Part shown: piece by piece, positions 11,472-64,000 of the stretch
Layout: each line of letters starts with the position of its first letter
Numbering within the stretch: position 1 is the stretch's first letter
Source of the DNA: Amoebophrya sp. A120
Lineage: Eukaryota; Protista; Dinoflagellata
Assembly: GCA_905178155.1 (NCBI GenBank)
Contig: CAJINV010000004.1
Coordinates: 1,302,881 to 1,366,880 of the forward strand
Length of the DNA stretch: 64,000 nucleotides
Reading direction: 5' to 3'
The notes under the pieces: generated by a model
What the model was told of the DNA's origin: nothing
The model's input: only the letters and a program-made list of their open reading frames with translations
Database searches by the model: none
Translations under genes and position numbers: made by a program

Positions 11472-14295
11472 TCAACCTCCCTCCGTTGGCGGGTCCGGCG
11501 ACAGGATGCTGTCGTGCGTCCGTGCGGTCCAGGGGGAATACGGCGTGGAGGGTGAGGCGTCCATGAGGTTCACGCATCATAGTGAAAAAAGCTTCCACCC
11601 CATATCGGAAACGGAAGATGCGCGAATTTGTGATGCTGTATTTGAGTACACAAATCGACTTGTATTGCTAGAAGGCCAAGAGACGAAGCTGCAGCATAAA
11701 TTGCAGGTAATCTGTCATGCGGTTTCCCACTTCCAGTTGCCTCCTGTCATCCTGGAGCTGCAAGGCTCTCCCACGCTAGGCAGCACTACAGTCCGCATCT
11801 TTTGCCTTCTAGCATCACAAAGCTGATTTGTGACCACAAATCTGCATCACAGATTTCCGTTTTGACATGGGGAGGGGGCATTTTTCATTGTGATATCACG
11901 AAAACCGGATTCTGCTCAAGCTGCCGGATACGGCCGAGCAACATGCGCGCGGCAGTTCCCCGGTTCTGCTGTTGCTGTCCTTGCGCGACTGCAGCTACCC
12001 CCGCGGCGACGAAGGGCGCAAACGCGGCGCCGCTGACGTGGTCCGGATTATTCTCGTCGTAGGGTCCGGTCAGGATATCTGGCAAAACCAGCGCGTTGCG
12101 CCTCCTCCGCAGATCAACCTCCTGCACCGACGGATCTTGCGACATGACCGCCTGGCTCGTGAGCGGTGACATCAAGGGGTCGCGCTGCTGCTGTCCCCCC
12201 CGCATCGCTGTCCGGCCCGACCGCAGCGGAGACATCGCGTCCACCTCGGAGGCGGACCACTCCCGGGCGGTGCCGAGGGGGGACTGCTCCAGCCGGAAAA
12301 TCATGGTGTCTAACAGGCGGTGCATCGTGGTCACCACCCACTCGTCCCCGCTAACATCCGGAAACCGCGGCGCACCGGAGAGCAGCAGCGGTTCGCCGCG
12401 GCGGAGTCTCTGCAAATACTCCGGGACAACTTGTACGGGTCGTGACGTGGTCGTGTAAATGGTGTTGTCTGTACTATTTTCGCCGTGCTCAGAAGATGCG
12501 GTCCCCTGTTCTCCGTCTCCCGAAACGACACTTCCTTCCTGACTGAACAGCGTGTCGGTACTAGACTTTAACTTCACCTTTACCTTCAATTTCAGATCCG
12601 TGGTCTGTCGGCACATCGGACAGGGGTACTGCACGGTCGCCAGTTCGACCTCTTCCGAGCCAGCATCCTGGTCGCTTGCATCGGCACACGGTGAGTGGTC
12701 AGAGGAAGTGGCTGGCACGTCTGCTGTGGCAGGTCCTGCTCTTGCAGCGCCAGTCGTTGAGGAGGCAGGATTACCAAATATAGCCGCCGGGGCGGAGGTA
12801 GTGAGGTCGTGGGCGTTTTCTTGCCGGCCGTCGCTTTGGCCGCGGCTGTGCTTTTCCTGGGTTCGCCATGCCGTCGCGAGTAACGTTAGGCCGCACGGTA
12901 TGGTGGCCGCTTCATAAACGTCGCAAATTTTGGCAAATTCCCGATATTCCCTTCCGAAAGCCAGCCCCCATGCTATGGGGCCGATCCGGGTGCCACGGGG
13001 GGCGCCCAAAAAGCGAAGGGAAATCGGGCCCGTAGCATGCGGGTTGGCTTTGCGCGTCTGGCGCGCTTTTGCTTTTTTGCGTTTTTATTTTTCGCGCCGG
13101 CGCTTTTTGCAAAGCTTCCCAGGCTCTGAAACAGGCGAAAACTCGGCCGCTTTCGCGGCCGCCCAAAATGCTCCGAAATCGCGGCCGTGCCGTGCTGTTT
13201 CGCTGTTCTGATTTTGGGCGCGTTTTTTTCGCGCCCCTTTTTGGGCGCCCCAAACCGCCAGAAACTAAGGCGGTGGGCGCCTCAGAAGGGCGCCCCTTTT
13301 GCTGGCTTGTCTGCGTCGTTTTACCCAGCGGCGATCGATAGAATCCGCTGGCGATTCGGTGCCGACACAGCCAAAGCCGCTTGATAATTGAAAATTTTTT
13401 ATGCTCAAAAACACTTTCGCCCGCTTGAAAACTGCCGGTCGTTTTTCACGGTAGGTGTCAAAAAAACTCCCTGGTTAGAACCGTTCGGTGACCTCACTAC
13501 ATATAATTGGTCGAGCTACTACTGCCTCCTTCCTCCACGCACGCGCCGGCAACACTTGGCGCAGTATCTACTTCTTCTAAAATGGTTGCGGTGACACCTC
13601 CACCGGTCGGGTAAGAGGAACAAAGAACTTTTGGGAGTTCAATATCGACCAGCTCCAACTCCTTCGGCAACAACTTCCGCAGATGCAGCGCCACGCAGGC
13701 CAGGTGGAAACACGAGTGTCCGCGCGATAGACACAGCTTCTTCTCCTCTTTGTTGTCTGTCCCGAGAGGACTGCAAAATTTTTTCCCGGTCTGCTGTCGA
13801 AAGCTCCAAGCCCGGCGGGCCATTCAACGGCTCCAGGCACAGACAGCAATCCCTGGTGGTCGCTGGTGCAGCTCCGAGGTTGGCACCTTGTTCCCCTTCT
13901 GGTAGCGCGGACGCGATACGCAGAGCCGAATTGTGCGCAGCTATGGGCGGAGGTACAATGGCTTCGTCGGAGTGAGGATCGGTGGCATAATCGCCCTTCT
14001 CGGCACCTTTTCCTTCCTCAGCCTCGTCTACGTTTGACGTCGTTCCAATCGCCGCGGATCTGATCCGTAGCTGTACCGCGGAAGCGCGAAAGATAAGACA
14101 GATCTGCAACAGAGAGAAAGAGAAGGCCAACAGTGTTAGAACCGGACGAGGACGACCTCGAATCAATGTGTCACGCATCTTCACAATTGTGCGGCTACTA
14201 TACATCATGTTGAAATAACGGCCTCTCTCAATGATCGACAACAAGATTGTGAAGACAGTACATCCCGCGTCTGCGGTTGTAAACAGCTGAATCAA
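11472..14295 (-). CDS. Membrane-anchored degenerate RING-finger protein; interrupted and possibly pseudogenised
   Basis: Hydrophobic N-terminus, CCLC, then GHSCFHLAC in another frame, then CPMCR after the 734-bp element. The last exon is recovered by removing introner 11575-11895 (...PVFVNLMDASP...EGG*). Apparent frameshift near 13770. Confidence 0.5.
11575..11895. mobile_element. Introner, TIR family B
   Basis: IR ATCA(T/C)A(G/A)TGAAAAA..CCCCAT(A/G)TC..AACGGAA; direct repeat TCACG at 11570-11574 and 11896-11900; removal restores the frame. Confidence 0.85.
12771..13504. mobile_element. 734-bp non-autonomous element, copy 2, inserted in the RING gene
   Basis: Same length and termini (TTACCAAATATAGCCGCC...GACCTCACTACATAT) as 5930-6663; the flanks differ. 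Confidence 0.75.
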
Positions 14296-14487
14296 TCAAG
14301 GAGGACCAAAGTCAATGTCGTGGCGCCTAGTTGCGAAAATCGTCCGTGAAAATGATCACCAAAGGTCGAGGTCTTGATGTTTCTTTATTGTTTCACATCA
14401 CAACAAAAAACGCGATCTTCTCGGGAAAAGCATAGAACACTTGGTTCACATTGTACAACTACAGTTTCGCAATATAGTACGGTATCC

Positions 14488-17412
14488 TCACAAAAAACCG
14501 TCGGCCTGTTCAGCCAACATGTCAGCATGATCTTCCATATCGCGCGCTTGGTCGCGCGTCTGCGACTTCAGTGCCTCCCGAAGATGTTGCCGGTGGTAGG
14601 GGTCGCGAAAGGAGTTCCTCCTCCTGTGTAGCGTTGCTCTCATATCATGCCATCTTCTAGTCGTGCGGCCCTCCTCCCGGCGGTCGTGAACAACTTGTTC
14701 TGTAAATGCCGTAGTACCACCTTCCTGTCGCTCCGGTTCATCCTCCAGTGCTGCAGCCCGGCGCGCGGCGCGGCGATTCAGGGTGCGGATTAAGCGTAAA
14801 ATCCTCACCATTCGTTCCTGACCGTGTTGGACAAAAAAGTCCACCATCTCCGCAGTGGGTAACCGAGGCGGAGGATGACGACCCTGGTCGCAATGGTTCT
14901 TCCTGGTCGTCATGTGGCGTCGCCTGCTGCTATGCCTCCTTGTTCTTTTAACGTACGTGTCGTCCTCACCACAAGAGGACGAAGCTGCCTTCAGTCTATT
15001 GTACAATTCCAGCATCTCTTTCAAGAGATTCCACGGGTCTACCACGAAAGCAAACACAAGTTTGGCGTCCGTCAATTCCAAAAGCGGCTTTTTATCGAAA
15101 AACGGGGTAGCTGCTCTAGTTGTCTTTATTTCCACACGATCATCGTGAGCTGCTTGCGGATGCTGCGCCAAAAAACTGGCGGAGGGGAGCTTGAGATCGT
15201 TTTGTTCATCTTCTATTGTGCTGGAAGACGCTGGCACTAGCGGAAAAATATCAAACGCGGCCGTCGGAAGGTGTCCCTCTTCCTGCGTTTTTATCCAGGG
15301 AAAGGTTGTGTCGGTTGGCTCAAACAGCTGCAGCTCTGGTGGTCGTGCAGCAGAAACAGTAGTACCGCTGGAAGTTGTTCCGTCTATGGCCTCGCAATTG
15401 GCCGTAGAAGTCGGAAACGGAATCATCATCTGACTCTGGTTCTGGAGGCCGGTAAAAATATCATAGCAGCACGAACTCGTGCTTCTTTCCGCTTGTTGCT
15501 CTTCGAACAGCCCCGCATTCCACACTTCCTCGACCGCATGCTTCGCGGAAATTCGAAACTGCATGCTTCCGGCGAGCTCTGCGTAGAGGCGAGGGATAAT
15601 TGACGAGACAGTAGCTCTTCTTGTTCTTCTGCTCGACAGAGCAGTCTGAGCCTTCCTCATCACCCCGTCATTTTTCGCTTGTCTCAGGTAAAAAATTTCC
15701 TTCAGAAACTTCCGGAATAAACGTAGGCGGTAGGAGTAAGTGGTATAATCTCTATTGTCTTCTTGGTCGAACCGGGATTCGTGCCAGAACTGTTTCACCT
15801 CTGCGTCCAGCTTGGCTCTCACATTCGCAACTTCCTGCGCGTTGTCCGGATTCGCGAAGCGGTCGAGCTCTAGATCGGTGTCTAGCTCGTGGTCTTATGG
15901 ATTGCAAATATGTCTGGGTCTGGAGGAAACTTGTAATGCTAATAGAAGTGAATGATAGACGCACTGCAATGCGCAGCTATGCATGACAAATTTTTTGGCT
16001 GCCATGTCTTACGTATTCCGCATGGCAAACTGCGTTTTTGCATGACAGGTAAGAGGCCTTTTTCGTGCCTATGCATCACAGATTCTCGAGTCATGCCAGA
16101 CAGGCATGAAAAACTTGCATTCTTGCAGACCCAGACATTTTTGCATTTGATAGGTCTTCGTCGTGATCAAATGTCGCGGCGGCAAATACGTCCAGGTGAT
16201 CGGCCAATTGAAGAATGGAGTCCGCCGTACTGACACTGGAGAAACAGTCTTCTTGTTCCCCTTCCCGGTCTTCAAAGCCGACTCGGAAAGCTCCGGGTCG
16301 CCTTGGATTGTTTACTCGCCCAGGCGGGTTGTTGTAAAGCCGTTGTTCATGGTCCCGGGCATGATCTCCACTGTCAACTTCATGGTCCGAAGAACTGCTG
16401 CTATACGTCGACTCGGAGTTGTAAAAAGAAAAACCTAGACTAGGCGAGAAATTATAAGTGGCATCTAGTTCTTGTTCTTCGCCACCTGCTGCTCCCAAGT
16501 CGGACGTAGAAGTTATGCCACTAATTGCTTGATGCACCCCTTCTGCGCCGTCGAGGAGATCAACATCCTCCGGACCGTTGCGAGTGGTCGAGGATCTACT
16601 TCCAGTCGCACGCCCGGGGTTATTATCAAATGCAAAAGTGTCTGGCTCTGGGTCTGTGATGCTAAAAATGAATGGTAGACGCACTGCAATACGCAGCTAT
16701 GCATGACGAATTTTTTGACTGCCATGTCTTACGTATTCCGCATGGCAAACTGCGTTTTTGCATGACAGGTAAGAGGGCCTTTTCGTGCCTATGCAACACA
16801 GATTCTCGAGTCATGCCAGACAAGCATGACAAACTTGCATTTTTCCAGACCCAGACATTTTTACAGTTGATAGTTATAATTTCCTTGATCAGAAAGCATA
16901 GAATCGTCACGATTGTCTTCAACAACGGTGTTCTCTTCTGTGCGTCGAGTTTGAATAGTACCAGGAGGACCGTTTTTCTTGTGGTCTACTCCAGCGGCTC
17001 CTGCACTTGGAGGTGGAGGACCAGAGCTTTGGATGCTCGTCTCCCGGCATTGGTGAATATGCTGTCTCGAGAATGGAGCTGTTCTTTCTTTATAGTGTTT
17101 CGTCTCAACTGGAGCTCCTGCAGAAACCTCTTCGCAGGTGGACGGGACTTCTACAGAACTGCCATTAGAAGTAGACCCACCAGGCGCGAAGGAGCAATCC
17201 TCCGCATCAACCTGCTCTCCGCGAAATATGGGCCGCAGCGCGTGGACACGAACTCCCGCCGCACCGGAAGATGATGAAATGAAGACGCCGGGTATAATCA
17301 TCAAGCAAGATGACACCAGTCTAGTTCCTCGGGAAGAAAATAAACCAAACCACCGCGGACCACCACCGGGGTTCGTCTTCGCGACTTGTGCACGACCCTC
17401 TAGTACCCTCAT
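14488..17412 (-). CDS. Hypothetical protein interrupted by two introners
   Basis: ORFs 16861-17412, 16091-16684 and 14488-15822 fuse in frame (DQGNYN|PGRA; FDHDED|HELD) when each element plus one 5-bp repeat is removed. Confidence 0.75.
15896..16152. mobile_element. Introner, TIR family A
   Basis: TIR TAT....TGCAAA.ATGTCTGGGTCTG; direct repeat GGTCT on both sides. Confidence 0.92.
16624..16872. mobile_element. Introner, TIR family A (close copy of 15896-16152)
   Basis: Same TIR and near-identical interior; direct repeat GTTAT. Confidence 0.92.
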
Positions 17413-18227: not shown

Positions 18228-21200
18228 TCAAAGTATCGTCAACTGATGCCCGTTTGACGCGCACAGCTTATTTTTCCGTACTAACTCCTGTAATCGCTCC
18301 ACGTAAAGCGAATGCCAGTAATCCACCACTTCTCTTTTCACCCTTCCATTCCCGTCTTTTGCCAACGTCGCCGGGTCCGGTAGACGAATGGGTTCCCCGA
18401 TCGCGATCTTCAGCCTTTCCACGGGGTTCGGCGCAGGGAAAAAGGAGCTGAAAAAACCAGCCGTCGGGATTTGTTTTCGAGCGAGAAAGCTGTTCAGCGT
18501 CGGAAAGTAGGTTTTGAAGGGGGAGAGTTGGTAGTAGCAGCCCTTGTAGGGAGAGACTGGATTGCTGCTGGAGATTTCAACATCCGGATCTTGTTTATGC
18601 CACGCAACTATGGTCCACCCTTGAACTTGATGGCTACTACAAACTTGTCTGGCATAAGCACAAGAAGCAATTGGACAAGAGCGAAGCTGACACGACAACT
18701 TCGACTTTACTTAGGGTGTATATATACGCCTATAATTCCCAGCCTAGAGCCACGTTCTTGATTTCGCGTGAAACAACAATGAGTGTCCACCACGGGACGG
18801 CGGGTAACATAGTTGCATTTATGCACCTCCATATGGTAAGCTTTTGTCCCAAACCTCGCCGTCGCAGTAGACCGGCACAATTTCCAACCCCGATTCCAGT
18901 GCCAGTTTTATGATTCTTTTCCGCTTCTTGAAGTAAATTTCGCTACTGTTCAGCCCGATCTCCTCAAATCCCCCCGGCAGGATCGCGATCGGCTTCAATA
19001 AGTCGCTAGCTCCGTCGACCTTCTTTATCCTTTCCCGTTCCCGGAAAAACTTACTGCTCGCGGGCTGGACGTCGAGCCCGGCGAACCGGGGCAGCAGCGA
19101 AATCACCGGCCCGCCGAATTTCGTCAAGAAGGGTGCGACTAATAACGAGAGGGAGCTGCTGCTCCCCTGCTCGACTTTCTGCAGCTCCAAGTGGGCTTTA
19201 AAGACGAGAAATCCGACGCACAGACAGCCGTGGGGGTGTATCAAGTAGAGACGGTTGGACTTATTTTTCGGATTTAATTTATCGCGCTCCTGGTGATCTT
19301 CTTCTTCGTAATCATCTTCCTCAAAATGATCCTGGTTGTCCGATGTTGTCGTTCTTCCGATCAGGAGGCTTTTCGGCATGGTGATTTCCACCTTCGGGAA
19401 CCAATTCAGCAACTTCCGCCACATGAATTCCCGCATCGGGTAGATGATATTCTTCTTCCAAACCGACTGACTCGCCGTCGGCAGGTGGTGGTAGATCTGC
19501 AGCAGGACCGGCCCGGCTCCGTGGTAGAGAAGATTTTTCGCAAAGGAGACCAAAACCGCGGTTAATTCGGGCGAATACGAACCCCCTTCGGGGTCGAGTT
19601 CTAGCACTTCGGTGGGACGGGTGGGGGGGATATCGAGCATGTCCGTTTGCCGGGTAGTTAGAAGAGATGAAGAAGATCCGGCACTTGATGTCGAAGATGT
19701 TGCCCCTTTCCGCAAAACAGTGTGCGTGATGAGCCAACGGAGGAGATCTTTCACGGAATTCACCCAACTGCTCCCACTTCTGGTTGTCCCGCCGGCAGCA
19801 CTTTCCATCCCTTCGTTGTACCCGAAAAGCGTTTCCACTAACTCCCGCAACAGCAGTTGCAAGACCGCGCCGGAGAGCTCAAAGAACAGGTAGAAGGGCA
19901 CCAGAGACGCGAGTAGCCAGCCCCCGATCACGACCCACCACTACGGGAGTGCACAACTCCCCCTCCCCCTCATTTGTCATGCAAAATACCCAATCCACCC
20001 TTTGCCTCTTGGCACTGTTTGCATGACAATCTCTGGTAGCCCCAATAGCACTATACTCCAGTGCAAATCTGTTATGCAAAACCGGCACTCTTGCTGATGC
20101 TTGTACTGCCGTTCATGCTACACAAATGAGGGGGAGGGGGAGTTGTGCACTGTTATAACCACACGACCACGGACAGAAACCGCTGGTCACCCTGGTACTC
20201 GTAGTGGAGGAGGGTCGTCGTGTTTTTGCGATTTATTTTCGCTTCGTTCCGATCGTCCTATCAATCTGAACCAACCACCCGACACGCTCGATGGCGTGAA
20301 CGGAGGAGAGAGGGCAAGGGCGTCTCGGTCCCTCACCGTAGAGACAGCCTGCAGGGATGCCTCAAGGCCCCTCCCAAGATGTGTCCTCTGTCACCACGAA
20401 TACCACGTGGGCACGAGGAAACAGCGCACCGGGTGGGTGGGTGGGATCGAAAGAAAAAATCAACCTTGGCACGACCCCCGCCTCACTTGCGGCTCCAGTC
20501 GTGCCACCTTGCATTAGCTTACCAGGGATCTGCTAGCCCTTTCCTTAGGAGTCTCGTCCTTTCCGTCACTTACTCGAAAATGATGCACCGAGGTGCATCC
20601 GTATTTCGCTTCGTTCCTATCGTCCTATCAATCTGAACCAACCGAAGCCACCATGGACTGCCCAGAACCCCGTCCGCGAAAAGAATAGTGACGCGCTCCC
20701 CTTACCCACCGAAACCAAAAATGGGAAAAGAGAAAGCGAAAGCGCCACTTCCTGCATAGTGCAACACCGCGCCGACCACTGCTGCGAAAAGATTCGGCGG
20801 GCGCCGGGAGCGGCCTTCGTAGCCCGCCCCAGACCGACATGCAGGCATCCCCGGGAAACCCGCCCTCGAGTGCTTTAGAAGTGGCGTGGCCGCCTGCCAG
20901 CTTCCTTATTCTGTAACTGTAGCCAACCTGCTATCCCCCTCTTGAAACGTGGATGGCGCACCCCAAAGGGAGCAAGCCACACATAGTGACAGCCTCTATC
21001 AATGATGAGCATCAGCACCCATTCCGAGTCCGAGTGAGGGCTCGGAAGCTTCCTTCCGTGCACTGATCCAGCGAGCACCAAGCCTACAGTGCGGTCGGCT
21101 GGTTGTCAAACCCAGGCTGATCCTATCTCCTGCCTACGTGAGGCACCTGAACAAAGAAGTTCCCGAGTTGAAGCTACCCCTTCGACTTGCATTTGGCCCG

Positions 21201-22493: not shown

Positions 22494-24642
22494 AGTTGTT
22501 TCGTAGACCACGTCGTACTAAAGAGTGCATAATTCTCCTGCTAGCTTTCCAGACAACAAAGGCTGTTGCTACTTCTAGGTTCTATCTGAAATAATTCCAA
22601 TGTTTTTACGATGAAAATTTTCACGACCTATTTCCCGCAGCGGGCTACTTTTCAGACGACACAAAACCACGCAAAGACGACCACGGCCGAATGAAAAAAC
22701 ACAAAGCAACTCGCTGGAACACGATAATTCCGACCTTTCCCCCGCCGGCCGCTTTACGCTTTACCCCCGGGTCGTGAGTGGAAAATTTCCGACCGCTCTT
22801 CAAAGATGACGTCACACCAGTCGAATGTAGCAGCTCATATATTGAATAAAGACAACCTGGGAGGACGTTTACTTGCTCGCGCGCAGCAAAAAAGTTGTTC
22901 CGTTGTCAAATTATTCACATTTGTATTTCTTGACGAGGTGCTGGATGACATATATTCTGCAAAGTAGTGCAAAAGCATATAATATTCAACTGTGCTGTAA
23001 ATTCGTGCACACTTGTAGTGAAATGCAGCTGAATTCTCAAATCTTCCATGTAGCACCCGGTGTTGACACTACCTTTTTACACAAAAGCTTACTAAGAGAA
23101 GTACAACAATAAGCATAGCAAAGTAAACTAATCTAAAACTTAATAAAAATAAAATATGGAAAGCACACCTAGATCGCTGGTTATTTCGTTTTTCAAGAGC
23201 GGAAGGAAGTAGCATGGGGAACCTAAAGAGGGCGAAGTTGAAGGGCGAGCAAGTGTTCGTTTGTAAGCATTCTTGTGGTCAGCTCAGAGCAAGCGTCTAC
23301 TAGTTCTCACGACCAGGCGCGGCCGTTGGACCTGCTCTTGCTTGACCATATAATAAGTATCATTCCACGTTGTTCTCGTGATCATTCAGACAGGAAATAA
23401 CGAATTGGGTAACTTTTGAAACTTGCATAGGACGAGGACATGATTTTTGTTAAATTTGGTTTTTAAGTAGACTACTCATCGTCGCACTAGACTAGGTGTT
23501 ACACTGCAAAAAATTTTGGATTACTTGCATTTCGCTTCCACCCTACTTTTCGCGGGGACGAGGCAGGGCAGAAGCTGCAAACGCGGACTACTGTTGTCTT
23601 CACCTGCTTGCTTTTCATGCAAGCGTTTTGTTTCTCGTAGTTCTAGTTCTACTAGTTCCGTGGTCCACCTAGAAGGCTTATTTCTACGTCGGCATACTAG
23701 GATGAGGTCTTGTCAAGGAGTTCGTTTTATAGGAGCTACCGCGAAAATTTTCGAAATGTACAGGGAAGATTGATTCTTGTATACAAGGCATTTGAGTCGG
23801 TTCATTTACCAGTCTGATTCATGCAGAAGTTGTCGTATTCTGAGAAGATGCCATCAAAATGAATATGAAAATGTTAACTATCCATTTTAGTCTTGCACAT
23901 TTACTAAACCATTTCTGCTCTATTTCGCAAGAATCATGTGCGCTGCAGTTTCATTCCGCCAATGATATTTTTTGACTTCTTTTGCGCTTCGATAGGTAAA
24001 ACTGCTCGAAACCGCAAGAGCTCGTGCAACATAACGGTTTCATTCCAAGCAGAGCCTCATCACAACTGTGTATGATTAAAGACCGGTCTTCATTCATCAC
24101 TTTGTTTTGCAAAAAAACAAAGACCATGATCTAGCCCAGCATAGAAATTATTTCGAAACAATTCCACAAGATGTTCTTGCCACAATACTTTGCTCGTACG
24201 CATCTCAACAAAAAAGAAAGCTCATCGCACATCCTTCGACGGTGCCGACGTGATGAACTAGTTCACGCACGCCGCATATTGTAACCTAGTTCTTCAAATA
24301 AAGTAACATCTTCGAGGGGATGATAGTTCTTCCGAAGCTCGCATGTAGTTCTTGGGTGGACTAGTATGCTTCTGAGTTTTGTTCATCTTCTACCGCAGCG
24401 GTGACATTTATTTTGGCACTTAGAAATTGCGTTCTTGACAACTTACTACTCTCGTAGTCGTGCTTGTGTTGATATTCCTTTACTATGCTTAGCAACTACC
24501 TCGTGCGCGGTTGATGAAAAACATGTCGTCTGCCGGGGAACAGAAAGACGGTTTTCAAAAACTACTACGGATCGTCGTCGTCGTGTACTTTGCCCACTGA
24601 GCAGCAGTACTACTTTTTTTCAATTTCATTTCAGTACCTTAC

Positions 24643-27600: not shown

Positions 27601-29746
27601 CTCCAACTTGAATAAAGTAGGCTTCTAGGTCTACTGTCAACAACTACATGGACCGAAAACATACGCACCAAAACGTGTTCGTGTAGTGATGATGGTATTG
27701 AAAATTACAGGAGGTAGAGGAGCTACAACAACCTAGTACCGGTGCTGTGTTCGTAAAGCAACTGATGAAAAAGAAAAAAGCACAAAAATATCCCTTCTTA
27801 TTATCAATACCGTTTTTGTCGAGGAAAAGCATTTGACTGGGATTTGCACCGTCCCGGCGCATTCGAGGCAGACAAAGTGGTTGTCCGGCACGTCCCAAAA
27901 GACGTGCGGCACGTTTGTTGCGGCACTGTCTTTGGAACTTGGATTGCCCTCGCTGGTCGCGGACCCACGCTTCATGCCCTTCACGGCTTCCTGTCGGTAG
28001 GTCGCCCGTGTTTTCTTGGGTCGCAACTCCTTTTCCAGCAGCTTCAAAATCGTATCCTCAGGAAGTTCCTTGCCTGAAAAAAGTTTATTTCGATGCCGTG
28101 TTTTTCTTTTTCGTATTCTATCAGTTCATTATAGCTAAAATTCTGTAGTTTTTGCAGCCACTAAGAAGAGATTGACCATTTGTGCTGCCCGTAGTTCCGT
28201 CTTCCTCTTTGAAAAGCAAACATGCGGTACTGTCGGATCAAGAATAATTTTTGCCCTTCTTCTAACAAACACCAGAGCCAGCCACGCCGTATAAAATCTC
28301 TATCAAAATACCAAATTTCGCCCGCAGATTTTCGGCATACTCTGCGATTTCGTCTTCGCTCATACCGCTGTAGGTGACTTTCTCCGTGACCACCTCGTCG
28401 CGGGAGCTGGAAAACATGCCCTTGTCGGCCATGTAGCAAATCTGCACGAGGCCGGGGAACATGAGAAAGGTGACCACGCCCTCCCAGATGTCCACGATGT
28501 TCGGCGTGACGATTTGGAGCACAAAGTAGAGCCAGAGGTAGGCAAAAATGGCGAAAAACGCGGTGATGCCGAAGACCGTCATGTCCTTGATCATCCGCAC
28601 TTCGTGCGACCCAATCACGGAAATGCAGAGCCCGATGATCAGAAACAAGTTGAAGGACGCGGACCCGACGATGGTGTTCGCACCGAGGTCACCCGTGAAG
28701 AAGTCCTTACCTATAGGGAATGATCATGGTAATGATTTTTTCAGAATTTTTTCTTGCATATTCTATTGCGATGATAGCCAATAGAAACTTTCTTTGTCAT
28801 GCAGTTTTAATATCAGTGCAAGTACGGCAAGCACGGGCTATCATTATGCATATACAGTATGTTCGAAAAAAAGAAAAGAAATATCTCTATACTGACGAGC
28901 TCGATAATCGACAGCAAAATTTCTGGCGTGCTGGATCCGAAGGCCATTAAGGTCAGGTTCGCCACCGTGTCGTTCCAAACCTATCAAATGTAAAAATGTC
29001 TGGGTCTGGGAACTTGTGATGCTGGGTAGCGTCTCATGATGAGGCTACAAATGCTGGCTCAGCATGACAAGTTTCTGAGCTCCTAGGTGTTGCCTATTCT
29101 GCATGACAAACTGCGCTTCTGCATCACAGAAAAACGCAGCTCTTGGGTAACGTGCATGACAGATTTAACAGTCATGCCAGACAAGCATGACAAACATGCA
29201 TTCTTCCAGACCCAGACATATTTGCAATCCATAAAACCGTGACCGTGACCATTCTTGCGGGGTCGGTCGGGTGCCTCACCCGCTTCTTCTGACTGGTAAT
29301 TTTTTCAATGCCGGACATAAACGTATCCGAGGAGATCGCGACCCCCAGAAAGAGCCACCCGAGGAAGAAGATGTAGAGCACCGCCCGGAGGGCGTCATCC
29401 GTCTCGTGCTCATCGTCGCTGAAGGGAAGGAAGACACCTGATATGATATAGCGTTTTATTGTTTATTTTTCCAAGGTGGAAGTGGAACCCCAACGACCTC
29501 CCTGTACATTATGCGAGACTGGCATTAATGCGAGAGCAGTACCCAGGCATCAAGATCAACATCTTATTCTACTTGAGTTACTTATTAAATTTCACACGTG
29601 GTCTTCTACCAGGGCGTCAAAACCTCCAACTTTTGTCTGTATCATTCTAGTTCTACGAAAATAAATCGTATTAAATCTATACCTTCAGTCCCACCCTCCT
29701 TGCAGATCCTGGGCTGCTTGGTGATGGTTTGCGTAAGCGTCGCCAT
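24643..29746 (-). CDS. Na+/Ca2+ exchanger (NCX/SLC8 family) with Calx-beta domains
   Basis: Alpha-1 VWNDTVANLTLMAFGSSTPEILL and TIVGSASFN; alpha-2 VALGTSLPDTFAS...NVTGSNAVNVFVGLG; Calx-beta VTIIDDDFPG. Three introners plus GT-AG introns. Confidence 0.95.
25928..26183. mobile_element. Introner, TIR family A (interior inverted relative to 15896)
   Basis: Direct repeat CATGC; join gives TYDRM|FAGTTSWGQQF. Confidence 0.92.
27148..27420. mobile_element. Introner, TIR family A
   Basis: Direct repeat TCTGC; join gives YVSVQ|IVDDDIVEPD (Calx-beta). Confidence 0.92.
28982..29233. mobile_element. Introner, TIR family A
   Basis: Direct repeat AAACC; join gives the conserved VTV|WNDTVANLTLMA. Confidence 0.95.
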
Positions 29747-49044: not shown

Positions 49045-51093
49045 TCACGCAGCAGCCTCCTCAACGGCAGCAGCGGCCTCTTCCGTGGCAGCCGGAGCGG
49101 CCTCTTCCGTGGCAGCCGGAGCAGCTTCCTCCTCTACCGCAGCCGGTGCTTCCTCCGCAGCAGCCGGGGTCTCTTCAGCCGCGGCCGGTGCCTCTTCCGC
49201 AGCAGCCGGGGTCTCCTCAGCAGCCGGGGCAGCAGCTTCCTCCGCAGCGGCCGGCGCCTCTTCCGCAGCAGCTGGGGTCTCCTCCGCGGCAGCTGGGGTC
49301 TCCTCCGCCACAACCGGGGCAGCTTCCTCAGCAGCAGCCGGGGCAGCTTCCTCAACAGCAGCCGGGGCAGCTTCCTCAGCAGCAGCCGGTGCTTCCTCCG
49401 CAGCAGCTGGGGTCTCTTCCGCAGCAGCCGGGGCTTCCTCAGCAGCAGCCGGGGCAGCTTCCTCCGCAGCAGCTGGGGTCTCTTCCGCAGCAGCCGGTGT
49501 TTCTTCCGCAGCCGCCGGTGCTTCCTCCGCAGCAGCCGGTGCTTCCTCAGCAGCAGCCGGTGTTTCCTCAGCAGCAGCCGGTGCTTCTTCCGCAGCAGCC
49601 GGTGTTTCCTCAGCAGCAGCCGGTGCTTCTTCCGCAGCAGCCGGGGCAGCAGCTTCCTCCGCAGCAGCCGGTGTTGTTTCCTCGGCAGCAGCTGGGGCCT
49701 CCTCCGCAGCAGCTGGCGTCTCCTCCTCGGCAGCAGCCGGGGCAGCAACTTCCTCCGCCGCCGCCGGCGCAGCTTCCTCGACCGCAGCGGCCGGAGCAGC
49801 TTCTTCCGCCGCAGCCGGGGTTTCCGTGGTTTCCTCCGCGACCGGGGCCTCTTCCTCAACCGCAGCCGGCGCAGCTGGCGCCTCCACGGCCGCCGGAGCT
49901 GCGACTTCCTCGTCCACAACCGCCTTTGGCGAGGTCTCGTCGGCCTTGGTCGATGGGGTGGCATCCGCCTCCTTGGTGCTGGCCAAGCCGCTATCCTATG
50001 CCAAAACATCCCCACCCCATAGTCAAGATGGGCAATCTGCTAGACAAATCAGCCAGCTCTGATTGCTGCACATGACAAGTTTGGGCCTTGTAGCATCGTG
50101 CTATTTAGGGAGTCCAGCAGCATCACAGGTAGAGCACATCATGCTGGTTAGAGCATCACAGATTCCAACACACGACTAGAAAATGCTTCTCATGGGGCTC
50201 CGCAGGAGAAACATTTTAAGCAAGCAGATTTGCATGACAACCCTGGGGTGGGGACGTTTTTACACAGGATAGACGCGCTTCACGCCCCGCTGATCCTCGA
50301 TGTACTGCACCATGTAGCCCAACGCGTCCTCCGGCCTGTTTAGATTGTAGTTGTCAAACTCATTACACAGCTACAAGAACCCTATGCACAAGACAGAACG
50401 CAAACGCAAGACCCGACCTTGCTGCTTCCTATCTAGGGACGACCACGTTGTGGTTTTGCTGCAAAAAAACACCACAGTGAAGCAAAAACAACAAATTTTC
50501 GATGAACATTTATAGACAAGAAATATTTATCTCCTACTGTTTCTCCAGCAGGCCGCGGATCATGCTCTGCAGGGTCGCCTGCACACTGTGCTCATCCAGG
50601 TACTTGGTGGCCTTCAAGGTGACCTCGTGGCGCGACTGGCGCTTCTTGGATTGCGGGGAGTCCTCCGGGTACACGCACTTGCACTTCAGCTGCATACCGT
50701 TCACGTTAATCTCCTCAATGTGCTCGGCGTCATTCTTCAGCTTGTACCTGTTTTGTGATTGCAACTTTCGAACAATAATTACACATTTTACTACAATCAA
50801 ATGGTGCACGCACCGCATGACAAAGTTCTACTACTCACGCCGGCATCATACTTGCTTCGCAGCACGACAGAACTTTTCACTTTATGTAAGTTGAGTGACG
50901 AAAAATGATACATTCCGACGCTGGCGCCGCCCAGGTACTGGAAGAGGTCGACCTTCATCGTGGCATGCTGACTGTTGGAGAAGTGGAAGGTCTCGTCCTG
51001 TTTGTAGGGCCCTTGCCTCCGGGTCTCCCCAATACGGATGGAGACGTAGGTCTTCTCCGGGAGGTTTCCCGCATCGCAAACAACGATATCCAT
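49045..51093 (-). CDS. Protein with a C2-like N-terminus, an RIIa/Dpy-30-like dimerisation motif and an acidic PAAAEE-repeat tail
   Basis: Exons 51093-50912, 50747-50538 and 50335-50272 (GT-AG), then an introner, then the last exon to 49045. YLDEHSVQATLQSMIRGLLEKQPEDALGYMVQYI motif. Confidence 0.8.
49048..49905 (-). repeat. Coding tandem repeat (21-27 bp units; PAAAEE(A/T))
   Basis: Repeated GCAGCAGCCGG(T/G)G.TTCCTC units. Confidence 0.95.
49992..50271. mobile_element. Introner, TIR family D
   Basis: IR TATCCT.TG..AAAAC.TCCCCACCCCA; flanks GCCGC/GACGC (4/5); in-frame join. Confidence 0.88.
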
Positions 51094-52225: not shown

Positions 52226-54219
52226 TTAATTCAACGGCAGCAGCCCGGTCGTGGTCTGCGTCACCGTACCGGTAGACCCCTTCTCCACATTACTGGAACT
52301 GCTGCTCCCTACGGGCAACTTCCCCAAGACAGGCCCCGCCGCATTTCTCCTGTGTAAAAACGTCCCCGCCATAGATTTCCTGTCATGCAAATACGCATGC
52401 TCAGGATGTTTTTCTTCCAGCTCTCCGTGTTGAGACGGTTTCTGATTTTCTAGTCGCGTTTTGGAGTTTATTATACCCGAAGTAGCTTAATGTGCCTTAG
52501 TGATGCGGCCAAGCGAGCCCAACCATGCTGATTTTCAACTAAACTACAGAGTTGTTCCAAATTTGATCATGTCATGAGACAGTCCTAAAGCTTCTTGATT
52601 TGATGTCTAGCGGCATCATCATCTTCAGGACTATGGGGAGCAGGAGGTGGGGACGTTTTTACTGAGAATAGTGTTGCTCAACACCTCGTCGCACTCCTCG
52701 TCCTCGTCCTTCTCAAATCGCAACAAGCTCGTGACCGCCTGTCGACAAATCGGACACCGTTCGCACTGGTGTCGCATGATTCCCGCGCAGTAGGTGCAGA
52801 AGGCCATGTGGCGGCAGGGCAGGACGAGCGTGTCCCGCGGCTCACACATGCAGATGATGCACTCGGTGTTACCTTCGTCGTAATCAGCGGCCGAGGCCAC
52901 GTTGGGTCCCGTGGCAGCCTCCTCAGCCGCGTCGTGGTTCTTCACACCGTAGACCTCCTGCATGTCCCAGCAGTCAGCTTTCTCGATATCAGGGGGAAGG
53001 TCGTTCCTGTAGATCGGGATGGATGAAAATGATATCGGTGCAGCAACAAAATTCTTCACAATCACATAATTACGCAGTTTCACCATTGAGAAAATGAACG
53101 CTTTGTTTTCATCCTTGCGAAACCAGACTCTTTTTCATCTTGCGAAGACGAGGACGAGAAAAACCTTCTTGATACGTGTTCTCTAGGTCCGGTGCGTACT
53201 GCAAAGCCTGCTTGTCCAGGTCCACCTTGAAGTTGCCCGACCCCGCGTCTTTCCAAATCTTGATTTCCGACCGTTGCCCGTTGATGACCGAGGCCTGCTT
53301 GCAGAGACTCAGGTCCCGCCGTAGAGCGACAACGAAACGAATCCCGTCTGTTGTGACTCTTTCTGCCGCGCCGAGGGAAGTGCGGAACTACAGAACATTT
53401 AATGATAGAAGGTTCGACAAGGACAAGAAAGTCTGTCATGCGTATAAAAGTTCCGCATGGGTGTTGTCACACATCGAATCATAGAAAAATACGTACGTCA
53501 CTTGCAACTTCTTCTTACCGTTTGCTTCAGCCCTCGTTTTCTCTTTTCTTCTATTGCGGGAAAGGGAAACTTTTCCTCGCTGTCCTTTGCCACTTTCAGT
53601 GACAATACCACGGGGCAGGACGCATCAAACCCGATCTCTAGCCAGAGGATCCCCTCCTCGTTACTTACCTTTAACAACGCCCTCCGCAGATGCAACGGCG
53701 ACTGTATCAGCTTCGTCTGCTTTAGGTCCGGCGGGTGCAGGGGCCGCCACATCCGCGCCTGGCTCGCATTGGCCCCGGGAAACCCGCCCTCGAAGCCCGT
53801 GGCGTCGCGGTCAAACGCGTTGGGCATCAGCGCCTGGCTCTCGTAGCGTCCGTTGCGCTATGCTCTGCAAAAATAGACGAGGCGAGCCGATGTAAATGGA
53901 AAAATGTACAACGGTGTAGGAATTCCTTGTTTCAAAAGTGCCATACATACTAGAAGTTTTGCATAACAGACGTGAAAATACACTTCTTCCGTCGCAGTCG
54001 GAGCAGTCCCCCGTCGCTAGTATCTGCGGCTGGATACAATCGACATGCAGAAAATGAAAGTGTGTGTAATGCAAAAAATGAAAATTCTAAATTATCGGTA
54101 GTCTATGCTACTTTTGCATTGCATATGCGCAGCACAAACGTATTCGTGACTACCGGCGGCGGCGGCGGTGCGCCGGGGCCCCGCGGTTGCGAGTAGTCGC
54201 TGCCGTACCCGTTGCCCAT
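52226..54219 (-). CDS. MGRN1/RNF157/LOG2-like RING E3 ubiquitin ligase
   Basis: N-terminal MGN; DMQEVYGV...ECIICMCEPRDTLVLPCRHMAFCTYCAGIMRHQCERCPICRQ; several GT-AG introns plus one introner. Confidence 0.88.
52346..52670. mobile_element. Introner, TIR family D, diverged
   Basis: IR GTAAAAACGTCCCC.CC; flanks GCATT/GTGTT (3/5); element+5 removal gives an in-frame last exon ending at TAA 52226. Confidence 0.8.
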
Positions 54220-58248: not shown

Positions 58249-61080
58249 TCACCCCACCAGGAGCTTCGGCATCAGCGGTGAACCCATCGCGGACGCGCCG
58301 GCGTACGTTTTGCTGGTTACCTATCGCGAGGAAACATTCCCCCTTCCCATACCCAAAAGGCGACGTCTCGCGCATGATTTGCGTACTACACGACAAACTC
58401 GAAGTGGTTTCCTAGGCGCGGCAAAGAAGAGACCGACTCCTCGTCGTGCAATGCAAAATTGGTTCCTGCCATACTGAACAGTCAACCCTTGGGTGTTTAT
58501 TTCCATCCCTGAGAGCAATCAATGGACTTAGCCTCTGTTGCCTGGTGCTTCTGACATAACAGCTTGATTCATGTAACGGCGCAAGAATTCGTGCTACACA
58601 GAAGATCTCGGTTTGAGTATGGAAAACAGGGAGAAGTAGATTTCCAATTTTGATATCACCTTCGCGTACCGCGCGAACAAGTCCTCGGTTGGCAGGGCGA
58701 CGACGAGACTCTTCTTTTTGTCCGGATTTGCCATGTCCTCCGAAATCACGCCGTTTTGGTCGCTGCCGCGGTACCGCGCCTGCGGGTGCGCGACGGACAC
58801 GACGATGTCCCCGCCCCGCTTCTTGTCCAGCAGCCCGTCGTGCACTGCCGCAGCGCAGATCGGGGTTTTCTCCGCGTAGATCCCGGTTCCGAACACCCCG
58901 CTCGTCCCATCCCCACTGCTCTTGTTCCCCGCGGGGCCGCCACACCCGGGCGGGCAGTGTGCCAGGACCGTGGTGCCCGGCGGTCCTTGGCTTAATTTCG
59001 TGGTGGGTAGCGTGGACGAGCACTCCAGATCCAGGCGGACAAAGGGCGCGGGGTCGGGTTTGGGCGCCTGCTCCTTCGCGGCCTTACCGGACGGGTCGCC
59101 GCCGTACCCGACGCACTTCAGAACCAGGTTGTTCGCGGGGGAGGGCTGTTTGTCCGCGGGCATGAACTCCGTCCGCACCAGTTTGAAGGAGCACTGGGAG
59201 ATGTCCTGCTCGCTCCCCAAGCACTGCAGCTGCGAGATCCCCGGCCCCCGAGATCCGCAGTAGGACTTCGCGCCGCCCTCGAACTGGTCGCAGGGGGTCG
59301 CGGGGTAATTCAGGTCGATGCCGCCGTACCCCATGGACCGGCACGCGGTCGCCGCCGTGCCATCGCTGTACTGCTCCCGATTCACCGGTCGCCACTGCCC
59401 CGCCCGCCACATCTCCAGGCGGCCCACCCCGTCCGCCGTCGGTTGGCCCGCGTCGTCGATCAACCGCAACTTCCCGTCCTCGATGTCCCACGGGTAATTC
59501 TTGTTGCTGCACCACACGACACTGTCGTGTTTGTGCGTCCGGCACTCCTCATCGGGTTCCAACCGCGTGCAAGACTGTAAAGACGTTTCCTCCCCGTTAC
59601 ACACCAGGTTCTTCGCGGCGACGACGGATCCCCGCGGGCCGCAGAGCGCCCCGCAACGCGCAGTCGGAATCTTCCAGCCCTTATCAAATGTAAAAATGTC
59701 TGGGTCTGGAAGAATGCAAGTTTGTCATGCTTGTCTGGCATGACTCCTAAATCTGTCATGCACATTCCCAAAGAGCCCCACTTTTCTGTCATGCAGAAAC
59801 GTAGTGTGTCATGCAGAATAGGCAACACCTAGAAGCTCAGAGACTTGTCATGCTGAGCCAGCAATTGTCGCCTCCTCATGATACGCCACACAGCATCACA
59901 AGTTTCCAGACCCAGACATTTTTACATTTGATAGCCCTTCCGGTACCCCAGTTCCCGGCAGATGTGCTGCGCCGTGTGGTGGTTCAAACCGCAGATGTAT
60001 CAAATGCAAATATGTCTGGGTCTGGTGTCATGCACATTTTGCATGACTCCTGATGTCTGTGATGCATGCACTAGCATCCCAGATTTTGTGAGGGCTTCCT
60101 GATCCTGATGCCTATATCGCATGAGAAATGCCCTCTCGCCCTGACAAAAACTGGACCTCGGTTCCTGGTCATGCAATACAGATTTTTGTAGAATTCAGAC
60201 GCAGCATCACAAGTTACATCCTTCCAGACCCAGACATATTTGCAATTCGTAAGATGCTGCCCCAGCCCTTGTCCGTCCGCAGTTCCGGGCGCCCCATGGC
60301 GGAGAGGTACCCGTCTTCCCCCACGATGCGGACGTTGGAGGAAATCTGGTCGATGGTGTCGACGGCGTACGTTTTGTAGCTGTCCGACACAATGTTCGCT
60401 CCGGCTTCCACCCCGACGTAGTTGCCCGCGAGACTGCTCCCCTCGTAACTCATCTGCGGGGGGCCTTTGGTAACAACGAGCGCGCCGCCTTGCACCGGCA
60501 TGACGCCATCGGCGATCGCGGACGAGCAGACCGCGGACTCGTTTGGGTGGACGGAGAGCCCGATCACCCGCGCCGCCTGGTCCTTCTGGCAGTGCGCCGG
60601 GCACACCACGCGGGCCATGTTCCGGTCGAATTGCAAGTCGTGCCCGGTGCTGCTGCAGCTAATCGGGCGGGTTGGTAAAAACCCGGTCCGGTCGATGTAG
60701 GAGGCCGGTTCCGCCGGGGCGGAGTCCGTGTGGGCGAAGGAGGTCGTGATCGCATTGCGTTGCTTCACTTGTTGTAGTTCTTGTGGATGAACAGAGGAAC
60801 AAGAAGAAGCCCAATCTCGAACTGGTTTTGCGTCGAAAATTCTGGACAACAGATTAGAAAAAAAACCCTGATGATTCATTTTACTTTCGTCAGGGTCTAC
60901 TACTTCGAAATTCGTCCTCTGGTGGTCCCGCCCGATAGAAGAAGTTCTACTCCACCGTGGCAGACCAGCACGATCCTGGAAGTAAAATGACGTCGGATTG
61001 GCGTAGTTCAAGGCGCCGTGAAACCCTTCCGGGTCGTCGGGCACAGGACCGGCAGAAAACAAATACGTTAACAGTCCCAT
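58249..61080 (-). CDS. LCCL-SRCR-SRCR-LCCL multidomain protein (apicomplexan CCp3/LAP1/PSLAP-like)
   Basis: LCCL (CPAHC...SAVCSSAIADG; CPPGC...VFGTGIYAEKTPICAAAVHDG) and SRCR (GRPE...WGSIC...ICRELG; GRLEMWRAGQW...ACRSMG) motifs; three introners. 5' end uncertain. Confidence 0.85.
58322..58655. mobile_element. Degenerate family-B introner with GT-AG-compatible boundaries
   Basis: IR TATC...GGAAA...CCC...CCATAC.CAAA; flanks TTACC/TCACC; intron 58659-58321 reads GT...AG and equals element+5. Confidence 0.75.
59682..59933. mobile_element. Introner, TIR family A (inverted close relative of 28982)
   Basis: Direct repeat GCCCT; join gives LGYRKG|WKIP. Confidence 0.92.
59998..60251. mobile_element. 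Introner, TIR family A
   Basis: Direct repeat AGATG; join gives the SRCR motif GWGSI|CG. Confidence 0.92.
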
Positions 61081-63452: not shown

Positions 63453-64000
63453 TCAGGCTATCCACAGTAAATTTCCCGTACACGTACAAATGCCGTCTCT
63501 GCATGACAAAACTTGCCTTCAATCCTAGTCTAGCATGACAAGTTGGACACTGCAAGTTAGCGAAATTTGTCATGCATTTTGTACATGTACGGGAAATTTA
63601 CATTGCATACAGGCGAAAGGGATGCTATTGAAGTACGGATGGCGCAGACACTGCTTGGCACTGAGTCTCTGCATCGGGTTATCCTGAGTAAAAATGTCCC
63701 CACACCAGAGTTGTCATGCAAATCTGCATGCCAAAAAAGTTTCTCATGCGGACCCCCACGAGAAGCATTTTCTACTCTTATTTTGGAGTTTGTGATGCTA
63801 CAATCAGCATGATTTGCCAAATCTGTGATGCTGCTGAACTAGCGAAACAGAATCACACTATGAGGGCAAACTTGTCATGCGAAACAGCGAAAGCTGGTTG
63901 ATTTGTCTAGCAGATTTCCCATCTTGACTCTGGTGTGGGTACGTTTTTACTCAGGATACGGGTCATATTTCATGATGTCTTCGATCAGATCGCAGGCCTG
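63453..64000 (-). CDS. 3' part of a CMGC (CDK/MAK-like) protein kinase; 5' part outside the window
   Basis: After removing introner 63680-63958: ACDLIEDIMKYDP|MQRLSAKQCLRHPYF (kinase subdomain XI). Confidence 0.85.
63459..63609. mobile_element. Short introner, TIR family G
   Basis: IR GTAAATTTCCCGTACA.GTACAAA; direct repeat CAGGC. Confidence 0.9.
63680..63958. mobile_element. Introner, TIR family D
   Basis: IR TATCCTGAGTAAAAA.GT.CCCACACCAGAGT; direct repeat CGGGT. Confidence 0.93.

What the first reader, a model, noticed from the sequence alone, without database searches (positions are those of the whole stretch)
11570..63963. Genome-invading MITE-like introns that follow a strict 'TAT...ATA element + 5 nt' excision rule
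Seen: 23 elements of 140-355 bp sit in coding exons. They have inverted-repeat ends, nearly all TAT...ATA, and a site-specific 5-bp direct repeat (perfect in 17: e.g. GGTCT, GTTAT, CATGC, TCTGC, AAACC, GCCCT, AGATG). Removing the element plus 5 nt rebuilds conserved motifs exactly (NCX VWNDTVANL, SRCR WGSIC, kinase YDPMQR). Most have no GT-AG option at those boundaries. Known: IR/DR-bearing non-canonical introners have been reported in Amoebophrya, but to my knowledge their splicing chemistry and mobilising enzyme are unresolved. Inference: a DNA transposase making 5-bp TSDs, paired with an RNA excision machinery that reads the terminal stem rather than splice dinucleotides.
Basis: partly seen in the sequence, partly recalled or inferred. 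Interest (0 to 1): 0.85.

Follow-up and report, generated by a model that had tools for sequence, protein, structure and literature searches.

The report
Amoebophrya jumping introns, fixed cut register
These are the already published transposon-like introns of the parasite Amoebophrya A120: the DNA keeps them, the RNA drops each one plus five bases, and the cuts likely sit at a fixed distance from the element's ends rather than at the usual GT and AG letters.

Summary
Real, and largely published. Window proteins match Amoebophrya sp. A120 at 100%. Farhat et al. 2021 described its introner elements with TAT+7+AAA inverted repeats and 3-5-nt direct repeats. I find 26 elements of 140-355 bp, 18 with perfect 5-nt repeats. 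RNA contigs skip 6 of 6 tested as element+5 nt; 14 more fit by exact contig length or annotated protein. DNA contigs keep them.

What may be new is the register, which the paper calls variable or unknown. Five imperfect repeats jointly allow only a cut 1 nt before TAT and 4 nt after ATA; one same-length GT-AG option is not used. In 356 oriented elements from a second assembly there is no G+1 or AG preference, but the T that would be +2 never varies at the 5' end (0 versus 8 changes, p=0.008), and N-TAT matches this genome's GTAY donors. Best reading: a U1-less spliceosome reading +2 to +4, with the terminal stem placing the acceptor. This only partly supports 'stem, not dinucleotides'. No transposase was found. 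Two look-ups showed no earlier scan note of these elements.

The parts
11575..11895 (-). Introner element, DR TCACG 5/5; the end that would be 3' in a minus-strand transcript has CAT instead of TAT
   Evidence: not RNA-tested; strand call weak
15896..16152 (-). Introner element, main TATCAAATG..GTCTGGGTCTG family, DR GGTCT 5/5
   Evidence: not RNA-tested
16624..16872 (-). Introner element, main family (88% to 15896), DR GTTAT 5/5
   Evidence: not RNA-tested
19942..20157 (-). Introner element in a DAGAT-like gene, DR ACCAC 5/5
   Evidence: not RNA-tested
25928..26183 (-). Introner element in the NCX gene, DR CATGC 5/5
   Evidence: model with L+5 has the length of the 4668-nt RNA contig and reads as annotated protein P0001
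27148..27420 (-). Introner element in NCX, DR TCTGC 5/5
28982..29233 (-). Introner element in NCX, DR AAACC 5/5; has a GT-AG option that cannot be told apart
32387..32604 (-). Element with decayed DR (upstream CCGCA, downstream CGCAT); RNA piece ends at 32382, giving cut 4
   Evidence: table 8
32889..33028 (-). Decayed 140-bp element, DR 1/5
   Evidence: length sum
33079..33384 (-). Introner element, DR TCCAA 5/5
   Evidence: length sum
33401..33698 (-). Decayed element, stem lost, ends in AG in the inferred register
34061..34354 (-). Introner element (81% to 33079, opposite orientation), DR CTTGC 5/5
34405..34670 (-). Introner element, DR CTGCA 5/5
35104..35383 (-). Decayed element, DR 1/5, starts GT in the inferred register
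35413..35734 (-). Introner element, DR GCAGT 5/5
35792..36057 (-). Introner element, DR TGCCA 5/5
37711..37919 (-). Introner element, DR AACAG 5/5
   Evidence: L+5 join, not L+4 or L+6, matches annotated protein P0121
38484..38838 (-). Decayed 355-bp element, DR 2/5; annotated protein allows cut 3 or 4 only
49992..50271 (-). Element, DR 4/5; RNA keeps the upstream copy (cut 4 or later)
   Evidence: joint 49985-50271, 3 runs
52346..52670 (-). Element in a RING-finger gene, DR 3/5; cut 4 or 5
   Evidence: joint 52340-52671, 2 runs
53859..54125 (-). Element, DR TGCGC 5/5
   Evidence: joint 53853-54126, 1 run
58322..58655 (-). Element in the LCCL/SRCR gene, DR 4/5; cut 4 or 5; GT-AG option 58321-58659 not used
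   Evidence: joint 58316-58656, 3 runs
59682..59933 (-). Element, 30-nt perfect TIR, DR GCCCT 5/5
   Evidence: joint 59675-59933, 3 runs
59998..60251 (-). Element, DR AGATG 5/5; 5' end TAC
   Evidence: joint 59992-60252, 2 runs
63459..63609 (-). Element at the stop codon of a kinase-like gene, DR CAGGC 5/5
   Evidence: not RNA-tested
63680..63958 (-). Element in a kinase-like gene, DR CGGGT 5/5
   Evidence: not RNA-tested
22888..30154 (-). Host gene: Na/Ca exchanger transcript, 8 GT-AG introns plus 3 elements, 834 aa
30963..36724 (-). Host gene of no known family, 4 GT-AG introns plus 9 elements, 410-codon open frame

Best explanation
These are Amoebophrya A120 introner elements: non-coding inserts with inverted-repeat ends and a 5-base duplication that stay in the DNA and are dropped from the RNA as element plus 5 bases, likely by a relaxed spliceosome cutting 1 base before the TAT and 4 bases after the ATA. 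Shown: anatomy, 5-nt duplication, retention in DNA, exact removal from RNA, no G+1 or AG preference. Inferred: (1) an unidentified DDE transposase or integrase inserts them with a 5-bp staggered cut, in either orientation; (2) one register holds for all, exon-N1N2N3N4 | N5-TAT...ATA-N1N2N3N4 | N5-exon; (3) the TIR supplies U+2, A+3, U+4 of a donor like the host's GTAY, read by U6/U5 without U1; (4) the terminal stem, or a protein on the 3' TIR, sets the acceptor by distance; (5) the subterminal TGTSATGC repeats are transposase-binding sites. Because both ends carry the same signal, an insertion at any sequence and in either orientation would leave the protein unchanged.
For: Host: 100% identity to proteins named Amoebophrya sp. 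A120. RNA: 6 of 6 joints equal L+5; two gene models with all 12 of their elements at L+5 give exactly 2662 and 4668 nt (against 23); the NCX model reads as P0001 and has no gap against the A25 orthologue at the three sites. DNA: contigs at depth 42-43 span 32387, 32889, 35104 and 38484 without a gap. Register: 49992, 52346 and 58322 allow cut 4-5 within the DR, 32387 gives 4, 38484 gives 3-4. TIR base 1 is T in 356 of 356 at the transcript 5' end and 348 of 356 at the 3' end (p=0.008); six other TIR positions tested show no significant asymmetry. 17 of 18 canonical donors here have A+3 and 12 of 18 a pyrimidine at +4. In Table S4 of PMC7789003 all 9 predominant A120 pairs and all 9 A25 pairs have T at +2; that paper finds nearly all spliceosomal proteins and U2, U4, U5, U6 but no U1 in A120. 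An asymmetric family lies 18 sense and 16 antisense.
Against: No lariat, branch point or excised RNA was seen, so spliceosome involvement is inferred. The single register rests on 5 sites and on assuming one rule; only 32387 and 38484 exclude cut 5, the first from a piece end whose partner piece was not displayed, the second from an annotated protein. With only locally confident strand calls the asymmetry is 0 versus 4 of 301, too few to be significant. G+1 and the final AG are catalytic-core contacts in studied spliceosomes (recalled), yet neither is enriched (93 of 282 and 25 of 282, background level), not even in weak-stem elements. A codon-usage test of which DR copy is exonic was uninformative. 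Table S4 may reflect aligner tie-breaking. No strand-biased branch motif was found. RNA runs X1, X2, X4 are one study, labelled RNA by guess, and may be the data behind the annotation. The source paper calls splice positions variable and argued against general transposase mobilisation in A120.
Confidence: 0.6

Rival explanations
1. A non-spliceosomal, structure-guided endonuclease and ligase (RNase III-like or tRNA-splicing-like) cuts beside the terminal stem with a 1-nt/4-nt stagger and joins the exons, as proposed for euglenid and diplonemid non-canonical introns.
For: No G+1 or AG preference; a same-length GT-AG option is ignored at 58322; in-register end pairing is predicted at 0.5 or more over TIR positions 11-25 in 23 of 26 elements; both orientations work; U1 not detected; the options are discussed in PMC12621601.
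Against: The one-sided invariance of T and the match of N-TAT/N-TAC to host GTAY donors are what a spliceosome would impose, though a nuclease could prefer U. Three weak-stem elements (33401, 35104, 58322) are still removed at L+5; two of them have one canonical end.
Confidence: 0.25
2. The elements leave as element+5 nt, but the cut floats within the direct repeat or lies flush with the TIR (cut 5), so there is no single N|TAT register.
For: Three of five informative sites allow cut 5; perfect repeats hide the cut; the source paper reports variable positions.
Against: 32387 and 38484 exclude cut 5; all five keep the upstream copy through N3 or N4; no TA-NN pair is among the predominant A120 pairs in Table S4.
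Confidence: 0.12
3. Programmed or somatic DNA excision, as with ciliate internal eliminated sequences, or an assembly artefact.
For: TA-like ends and loss of one repeat copy resemble precise DNA excision.
Against: DNA contigs run through four elements and into the ends of others at even depth, while RNA contigs skip elements and canonical introns alike; the same families occur in a second assembly. Contigs drop rare variants, so a minor excised DNA fraction is not excluded.
Confidence: 0.03

Closest known systems
Introner elements of Amoebophrya sp. A120 (Farhat et al. 2021, PMC7789003)
   Same: Same strain; IRs start TAT, 7 free bases, then AAA; DRs of 3-5 nt (5 bp in legend S19); repeated families; RNA-supported non-canonical introns; no internal transposase.
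   Different: The text read calls splice sites variable or unknown relative to the hairpin and sees no dinucleotide signature. Here the duplication is strictly 5 nt, the register appears fixed and T+2 appears required. Figures 3, 4 and S19-S25 could not be seen and may show part of this.
A120 family 38, integrase-like TIR introner (Gozashti et al. 2025, PMC12130899)
   Same: Same genome, TIRs, intron-forming; offers an integrase-like candidate enzyme.
   Different: It has ORFs with Copia/Gypsy homology; none of the elements examined here does. Whether it shares TAT ends and 5-bp TSDs was not checked (its supplement was not read).
Ginger2/Tdd DNA transposons (Bao et al. 2010, PMC2836005)
   Same: TIRs; TDD-4 and TDD-5 make 5-bp TSDs; integrase-type enzyme.
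   Different: Ginger ends are TGTNR; here they are TAT. No transposase found.
Fritillaria borealis non-canonical introns (PMC13326754; PMC11282704)
   Same: MITE-derived, TIR and TSD, removed by an adapted U2 spliceosome.
   Different: They have preferred pairs (AG-AC, AG-AT) and keep U1; here +1, -2 and -1 are free and U1 was not detected.
Euglenid and diplonemid non-conventional introns (PMC12621601; PMC11282704)
   Same: End-pairing introns with TSD-like repeats and unknown excision route.
   Different: Different motifs (CAG/CTG), circular excised RNA in Euglena, unrelated lineage.

Membership tests
Amoebophrya A120 introner elements | Host genome is A120 | tested here: met
   100% identity to two proteins named A120
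Amoebophrya A120 introner elements | IR starts TAT + 7 nt + AAA | tested here: met
   definition
Amoebophrya A120 introner elements | 3-5-nt direct repeat at the borders | tested here: met
   5 nt; 18 of 26 perfect in the window, 251 of 324 elsewhere
Amoebophrya A120 introner elements | Removed from RNA with non-GT-AG ends | tested here: met
   6 of 6 joints
Amoebophrya A120 introner elements | Repeated families | tested here: met
   18 of 26 have near-full-length relatives in 152 other loci, best 81-98% identical
MITE (non-autonomous TIR DNA transposon) | Short, TIR, TSD, no coding capacity, many copies | tested here: met
MITE (non-autonomous TIR DNA transposon) | Cognate autonomous element with the same ends | tested here: inconclusive
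   none in 600 kb of overlapping loci; 98 of 104 long ORFs scanned, no transposase or integrase family; whole genome not available
MITE (non-autonomous TIR DNA transposon) | Empty sites in sister strains | tested here: inconclusive
   no orthologous DNA obtained; A25 NCX protein is colinear at three sites; unnamed relative P0122 appears to carry the 38484 element
Ginger/Tdd transposons | TGT...ACA termini | tested here: not met
   TAT at 683 of 842 ends; definition
Ginger/Tdd transposons | 4-5-bp TSD | tested here: met
U2 spliceosomal intron | G+1 and terminal AG | tested here: not met
U2 spliceosomal intron | U+2, A+3 donor core | tested here: met
   in the inferred register: T 356 of 356, A 354 of 356
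U2 spliceosomal intron | Branch point and lariat | not testable with these tools
   only contigs were available for this strain; motif strand test negative
Euglenid-type non-conventional intron | Circular excised RNA, spliceosome-independent | not testable with these tools
   needs raw or RNase R-treated reads
Ciliate-type DNA-eliminated sequence | Absent from the bulk of genomic DNA | tested here: not met
   table 8

The most novel reading that the evidence does not exclude
Tens of thousands of A120 introns leave by a route that ignores the first and both last intron bases and measures 1 nt and 4 nt from a transposon's terminal stem. At its boldest this is not the spliceosome but a dedicated nuclease-ligase matched to the 5-bp footprint of an unknown TAT-end transposase, which makes any exonic insertion silent.
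Probability: 0.25. Interest if true: 0.85.

Novelty: already known. Interest (0 to 1): 0.42.

Why it matters
How Amoebophrya removes about 65% of its introns without GT-AG and without a detected U1 is an open question in the papers read. A fixed N|TAT...ATA-NNNN| register would turn 'no clear signature' into a precise substrate: it says which base should carry the branch, which positions to mutate, and how to correct gene models at DR-ambiguous junctions. It would also explain why the elements can invade exons at any sequence and in either orientation without cost. The element class itself is not new.

Tried and rejected
No whole genome was held. One search mixed a DNA run with RNA runs, and repeat contigs crowded true joints out of the table; only pieces and lengths were usable. 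The 2026 raw-read run X12 laid 24 reads, and estuary runs X5 and X6 gave no junction-spanning contig, so there is no support from a second study. A 4-nt duplication at 32387 looked possible but was rejected by the piece end and length sum. TGTSATG/CATSACA as a branch point: rejected for now, no sense-strand bias outside elements (153 versus 123, p=0.08). Drift toward G+1 or AG in weak-stem elements: not seen. Canonical introns as decayed elements with ATA at -7: 1 of 18 (read). Codon-usage test of the exonic DR copy: uninformative. Viral contigs: 32 matches to a 16-nt TIR core, none with the TIR's outer bases, taken as chance. Searches for the annotated 410-aa protein, which would test the 32889 junction, failed. 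Seven long TIR-bounded stretches (457-1148 bp): six carry unrelated or low-complexity filler, one is three short elements in a row; longest open frame 151 codons. First NCX models failed until one intron was re-placed. Earlier-findings look-ups gave one note on another genome that did not bear on this.
Full report
Observation. An unbiased scan for inverted ends with flanking repeats, a gapped scan and a profile scan gave 22 elements. A relaxed scan added 32889-33028 and 38484-38838, and gene modelling added 33401-33698 and 35104-35383. That makes 26 elements of 140-355 bp; 18 have a perfect 5-nt direct repeat and 8 a partly or fully decayed one. Ends read TAT, seven looser bases, then AAA. A stricter detector found 15 of the 22 and none in three shuffled windows. 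The host genes lie on the minus strand (weak calls for 11575 and 16624); Pfam confirms Na_Ca_ex, LCCL, SRCR, RING and DAGAT exons.

Identity. An NCX exon and a 607-residue stretch of a second gene are 100% identical to proteins named Amoebophrya sp. A120. Farhat et al. 2021 (PMC7789003; I read the abstract, sections 10, 11, 12, 16, 25, 32, search passages, supplement legends and supplement part 3; no figures) describe 29,850 repeated introns in A120 whose IRs start with TAT, seven less conserved bases and at least three A, with DRs of 3-5 nt; legend S19 shows 5-bp DRs. The window's elements are these.

DNA or RNA. Run X8 covers introns and intergenic DNA at depth about 42-55. Its contigs span 32387, 32889, 35104 and 38484 without gaps and run from unique flanks into the ends of other elements. 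In one search three runs of one study, labelled RNA by guess, join five GT-AG introns and all six elements in 49930-60400; the skips are 285, 330, 272, 339, 257 and 259 nt, each element length plus 5 (15 of 16 joint rows were shown). For two further genes only contig pieces were visible. A model with nine elements at L+5 and three GT-AG introns left 127 nt unexplained, which is exactly a GT-AG intron whose edge fits the next piece start; the model is 2662 nt like the contig and holds a 410-codon frame. The canonical introns were chosen by eye and two decayed elements were found during this modelling, so this is a sum check. The NCX model is 4668 nt like its contig and reads as the annotated 834-aa protein, with no gap against the A25 orthologue at the three sites. 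The annotated protein P0121 fits L+5 at 37711 and 38484. So 20 of 26 elements have RNA-level or annotation-level support and 6 were not tested. These data may share one origin with the published annotation.

Larger sample. With termini left free, 421 candidates had TAT at 683 of 842 ends; of 324 TAT..ATA elements 251 have a perfect 5-nt repeat and 46 a 4/5 match, against 1 for 4 nt and 0 for 6 nt. A stricter set of 391 was oriented by a codon model: 356 were called and 35 left out; neighbouring confident calls agreed in 180 of 189. L+5 gave the best codon score in 247 of 351, L+4 in 48, L+6 in 56. Target 5-mers are unspecific (229 distinct in 282; GC 0.57 as in flanks). An asymmetric family lies 18 times sense and 16 times antisense.

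Where the cuts fall. Number the repeat N1-N5 in transcript direction and let 'cut' be the number of upstream bases kept. Perfect repeats hide it. At 49992, 52346 and 58322 the RNA keeps the upstream copy, allowing cut 4 or 5 within the repeat; at 58322 this excludes a same-length GT-AG intron. At 32387 the RNA piece ends at 32382, which under the tool's leftmost placement fits only cut 4 (the partner piece was not displayed). At 38484 the annotated protein allows cut 3 or 4. If one rule holds it is cut 4: the intron is N5-TAT...ATA-N1N2N3N4. In that register +1 is free (G in 93 of 282, flanks 27-35%) and the last two bases are free (AG in 25 of 282, background 8.3%); only 15 of 282 have a GT-AG option in any register. 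The first TIR base, which would be +2, is T in 356 of 356 at the 5' end but 348 of 356 at the 3' end (p=0.008); with locally confident strands only it is 0 versus 4 of 301. At +4 the 5' end tolerates C (8) and G (2). The 18 canonical donors modelled here have A+3 in 17 and a pyrimidine at +4 in 12. Table S4 of the paper lists nine predominant A120 pairs, all with T second (GT, CT, AT, TT), and nine A25 pairs, all TT, while the text says no clear signature was seen and that positions relative to the hairpin are variable or unknown. Aligner tie-breaking could produce that table, so it is consistent evidence, not independent. [quoted passage not shown]

Mechanism. I favour a relaxed spliceosome (0.6 overall; about 0.97 for identity and L+5 removal, 0.75 for the register). 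The TIR presents U+2, A+3, U+4 like a host donor; the spliceosomal proteins and U2, U4, U5, U6 are present and U1 was not detected. U6 pairing with U+4 is favoured when U6 m6A is low (PMC13326754, abstract and Discussion part 1), and a U1-less spliceosome is reported for Cyanidioschyzon (search listing only). The acceptor cannot be read as AG; end pairing is predicted at 0.5 or more in 23 of 26 elements and could act as a ruler. Against this, loss of G+1 and AG is hard for known spliceosomes (recalled), no branch motif was found, and weak-stem elements show no drift to canonical ends, although two decayed window elements have one canonical end each. The nuclease-ligase rival (PMC12621601, abstract and Discussion) stays open at 0.25.

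Mobility. TIRs, a strict 5-bp duplication, both orientations and a shared subterminal motif point to DNA transposition. TGTSATG/CATSACA occurs in 325 of 356 elements, peaks 30-50 nt from each end in mirror orientation, at 9.7 per kb inside against 1.1 outside; it is also in the window's canonical introns (8 in 3427 nt, shuffled mean 0.86, maximum 5 in 2000) and rare in long exons (1 in 15,320 nt). No transposase was found in 98 of 104 long ORFs or in seven long TIR-bounded stretches. Gozashti et al. 2025 (passages) report an integrase-like TIR family in A120 that lacks Ginger ends; Ginger ends are TGT and TDD elements make 5-bp TSDs (passages). An integrase-type enzyme with TAT ends is my guess; it is untested.

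Novelty. Five literature searches and passages of two reviews (PMC11282704, PMC11453091), PMC9860276 and PMC12005148 showed no statement of a fixed register or a +2 requirement for these introns; subscription journals and figures are outside what I could see. Verdict: already known elements in their type genome, with a testable refinement of the splice rule. Interest 0.42.

Noticed in passing
window canonical introns, e.g. 28711-28892, 32665-32825, 33751-33873, 34703-34956, 50748-50911, 53388-53518: The elements' subterminal motif TGTSATG/CATSACA is about ten-fold enriched in ordinary GT-AG introns (8 in 3427 nt; shuffled mean 0.86), suggesting that many are old elements or share a bound protein.
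   Followed up: partly
window 20186-21432: A 40-nt exact direct repeat 1207 nt apart (20186, 21393) and a second 40-nt repeat (20237, 20604) upstream of the DAGAT-like gene; DNA depth is raised at 20151-20801. Possibly another kind of insertion or a partial duplication; the neighbouring 423-codon frame has no Pfam match.
   Followed up: partly
window 5930-6419 and 12771-13260: Two copies, 6841 nt apart, of a GC-rich segment (88% over 300 nt) in front of long minus-strand frames without Pfam match; the first 11.5 kb of the window holds no detected element.
   Followed up: no
window 63459-63609: The element sits on the last codon of a kinase-like gene; the TGA stop exists only after removal.
   Followed up: no
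window 38484-38838; protein P0122: An unnamed relative, 87% identical over the region searched, reads into the same element at the same site, so this insertion appears to predate their split.
   Followed up: partly
L058:6001-6972, L067:4779-5926, L040:3862-4492, L039:571-1051, L058:10903-11398, L021:6314-6770: Long elements (457-1148 bp) with intact ends and 4-5/5 repeats carrying unrelated or low-complexity filler; two lie in a locus with RNA polymerase Rpb1 exons.
   Followed up: partly
window 49045-49995: Long Ala/Glu/Pro tandem coding repeat in the exon after element 49992.
   Followed up: no
imperfect repeats in L002-L142: At N5 the upstream copy is a purine and the downstream a pyrimidine in 8 cases and the reverse in 3 of 17 mismatches; a possible weak preference for a purine at intron +1.
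   Followed up: partly
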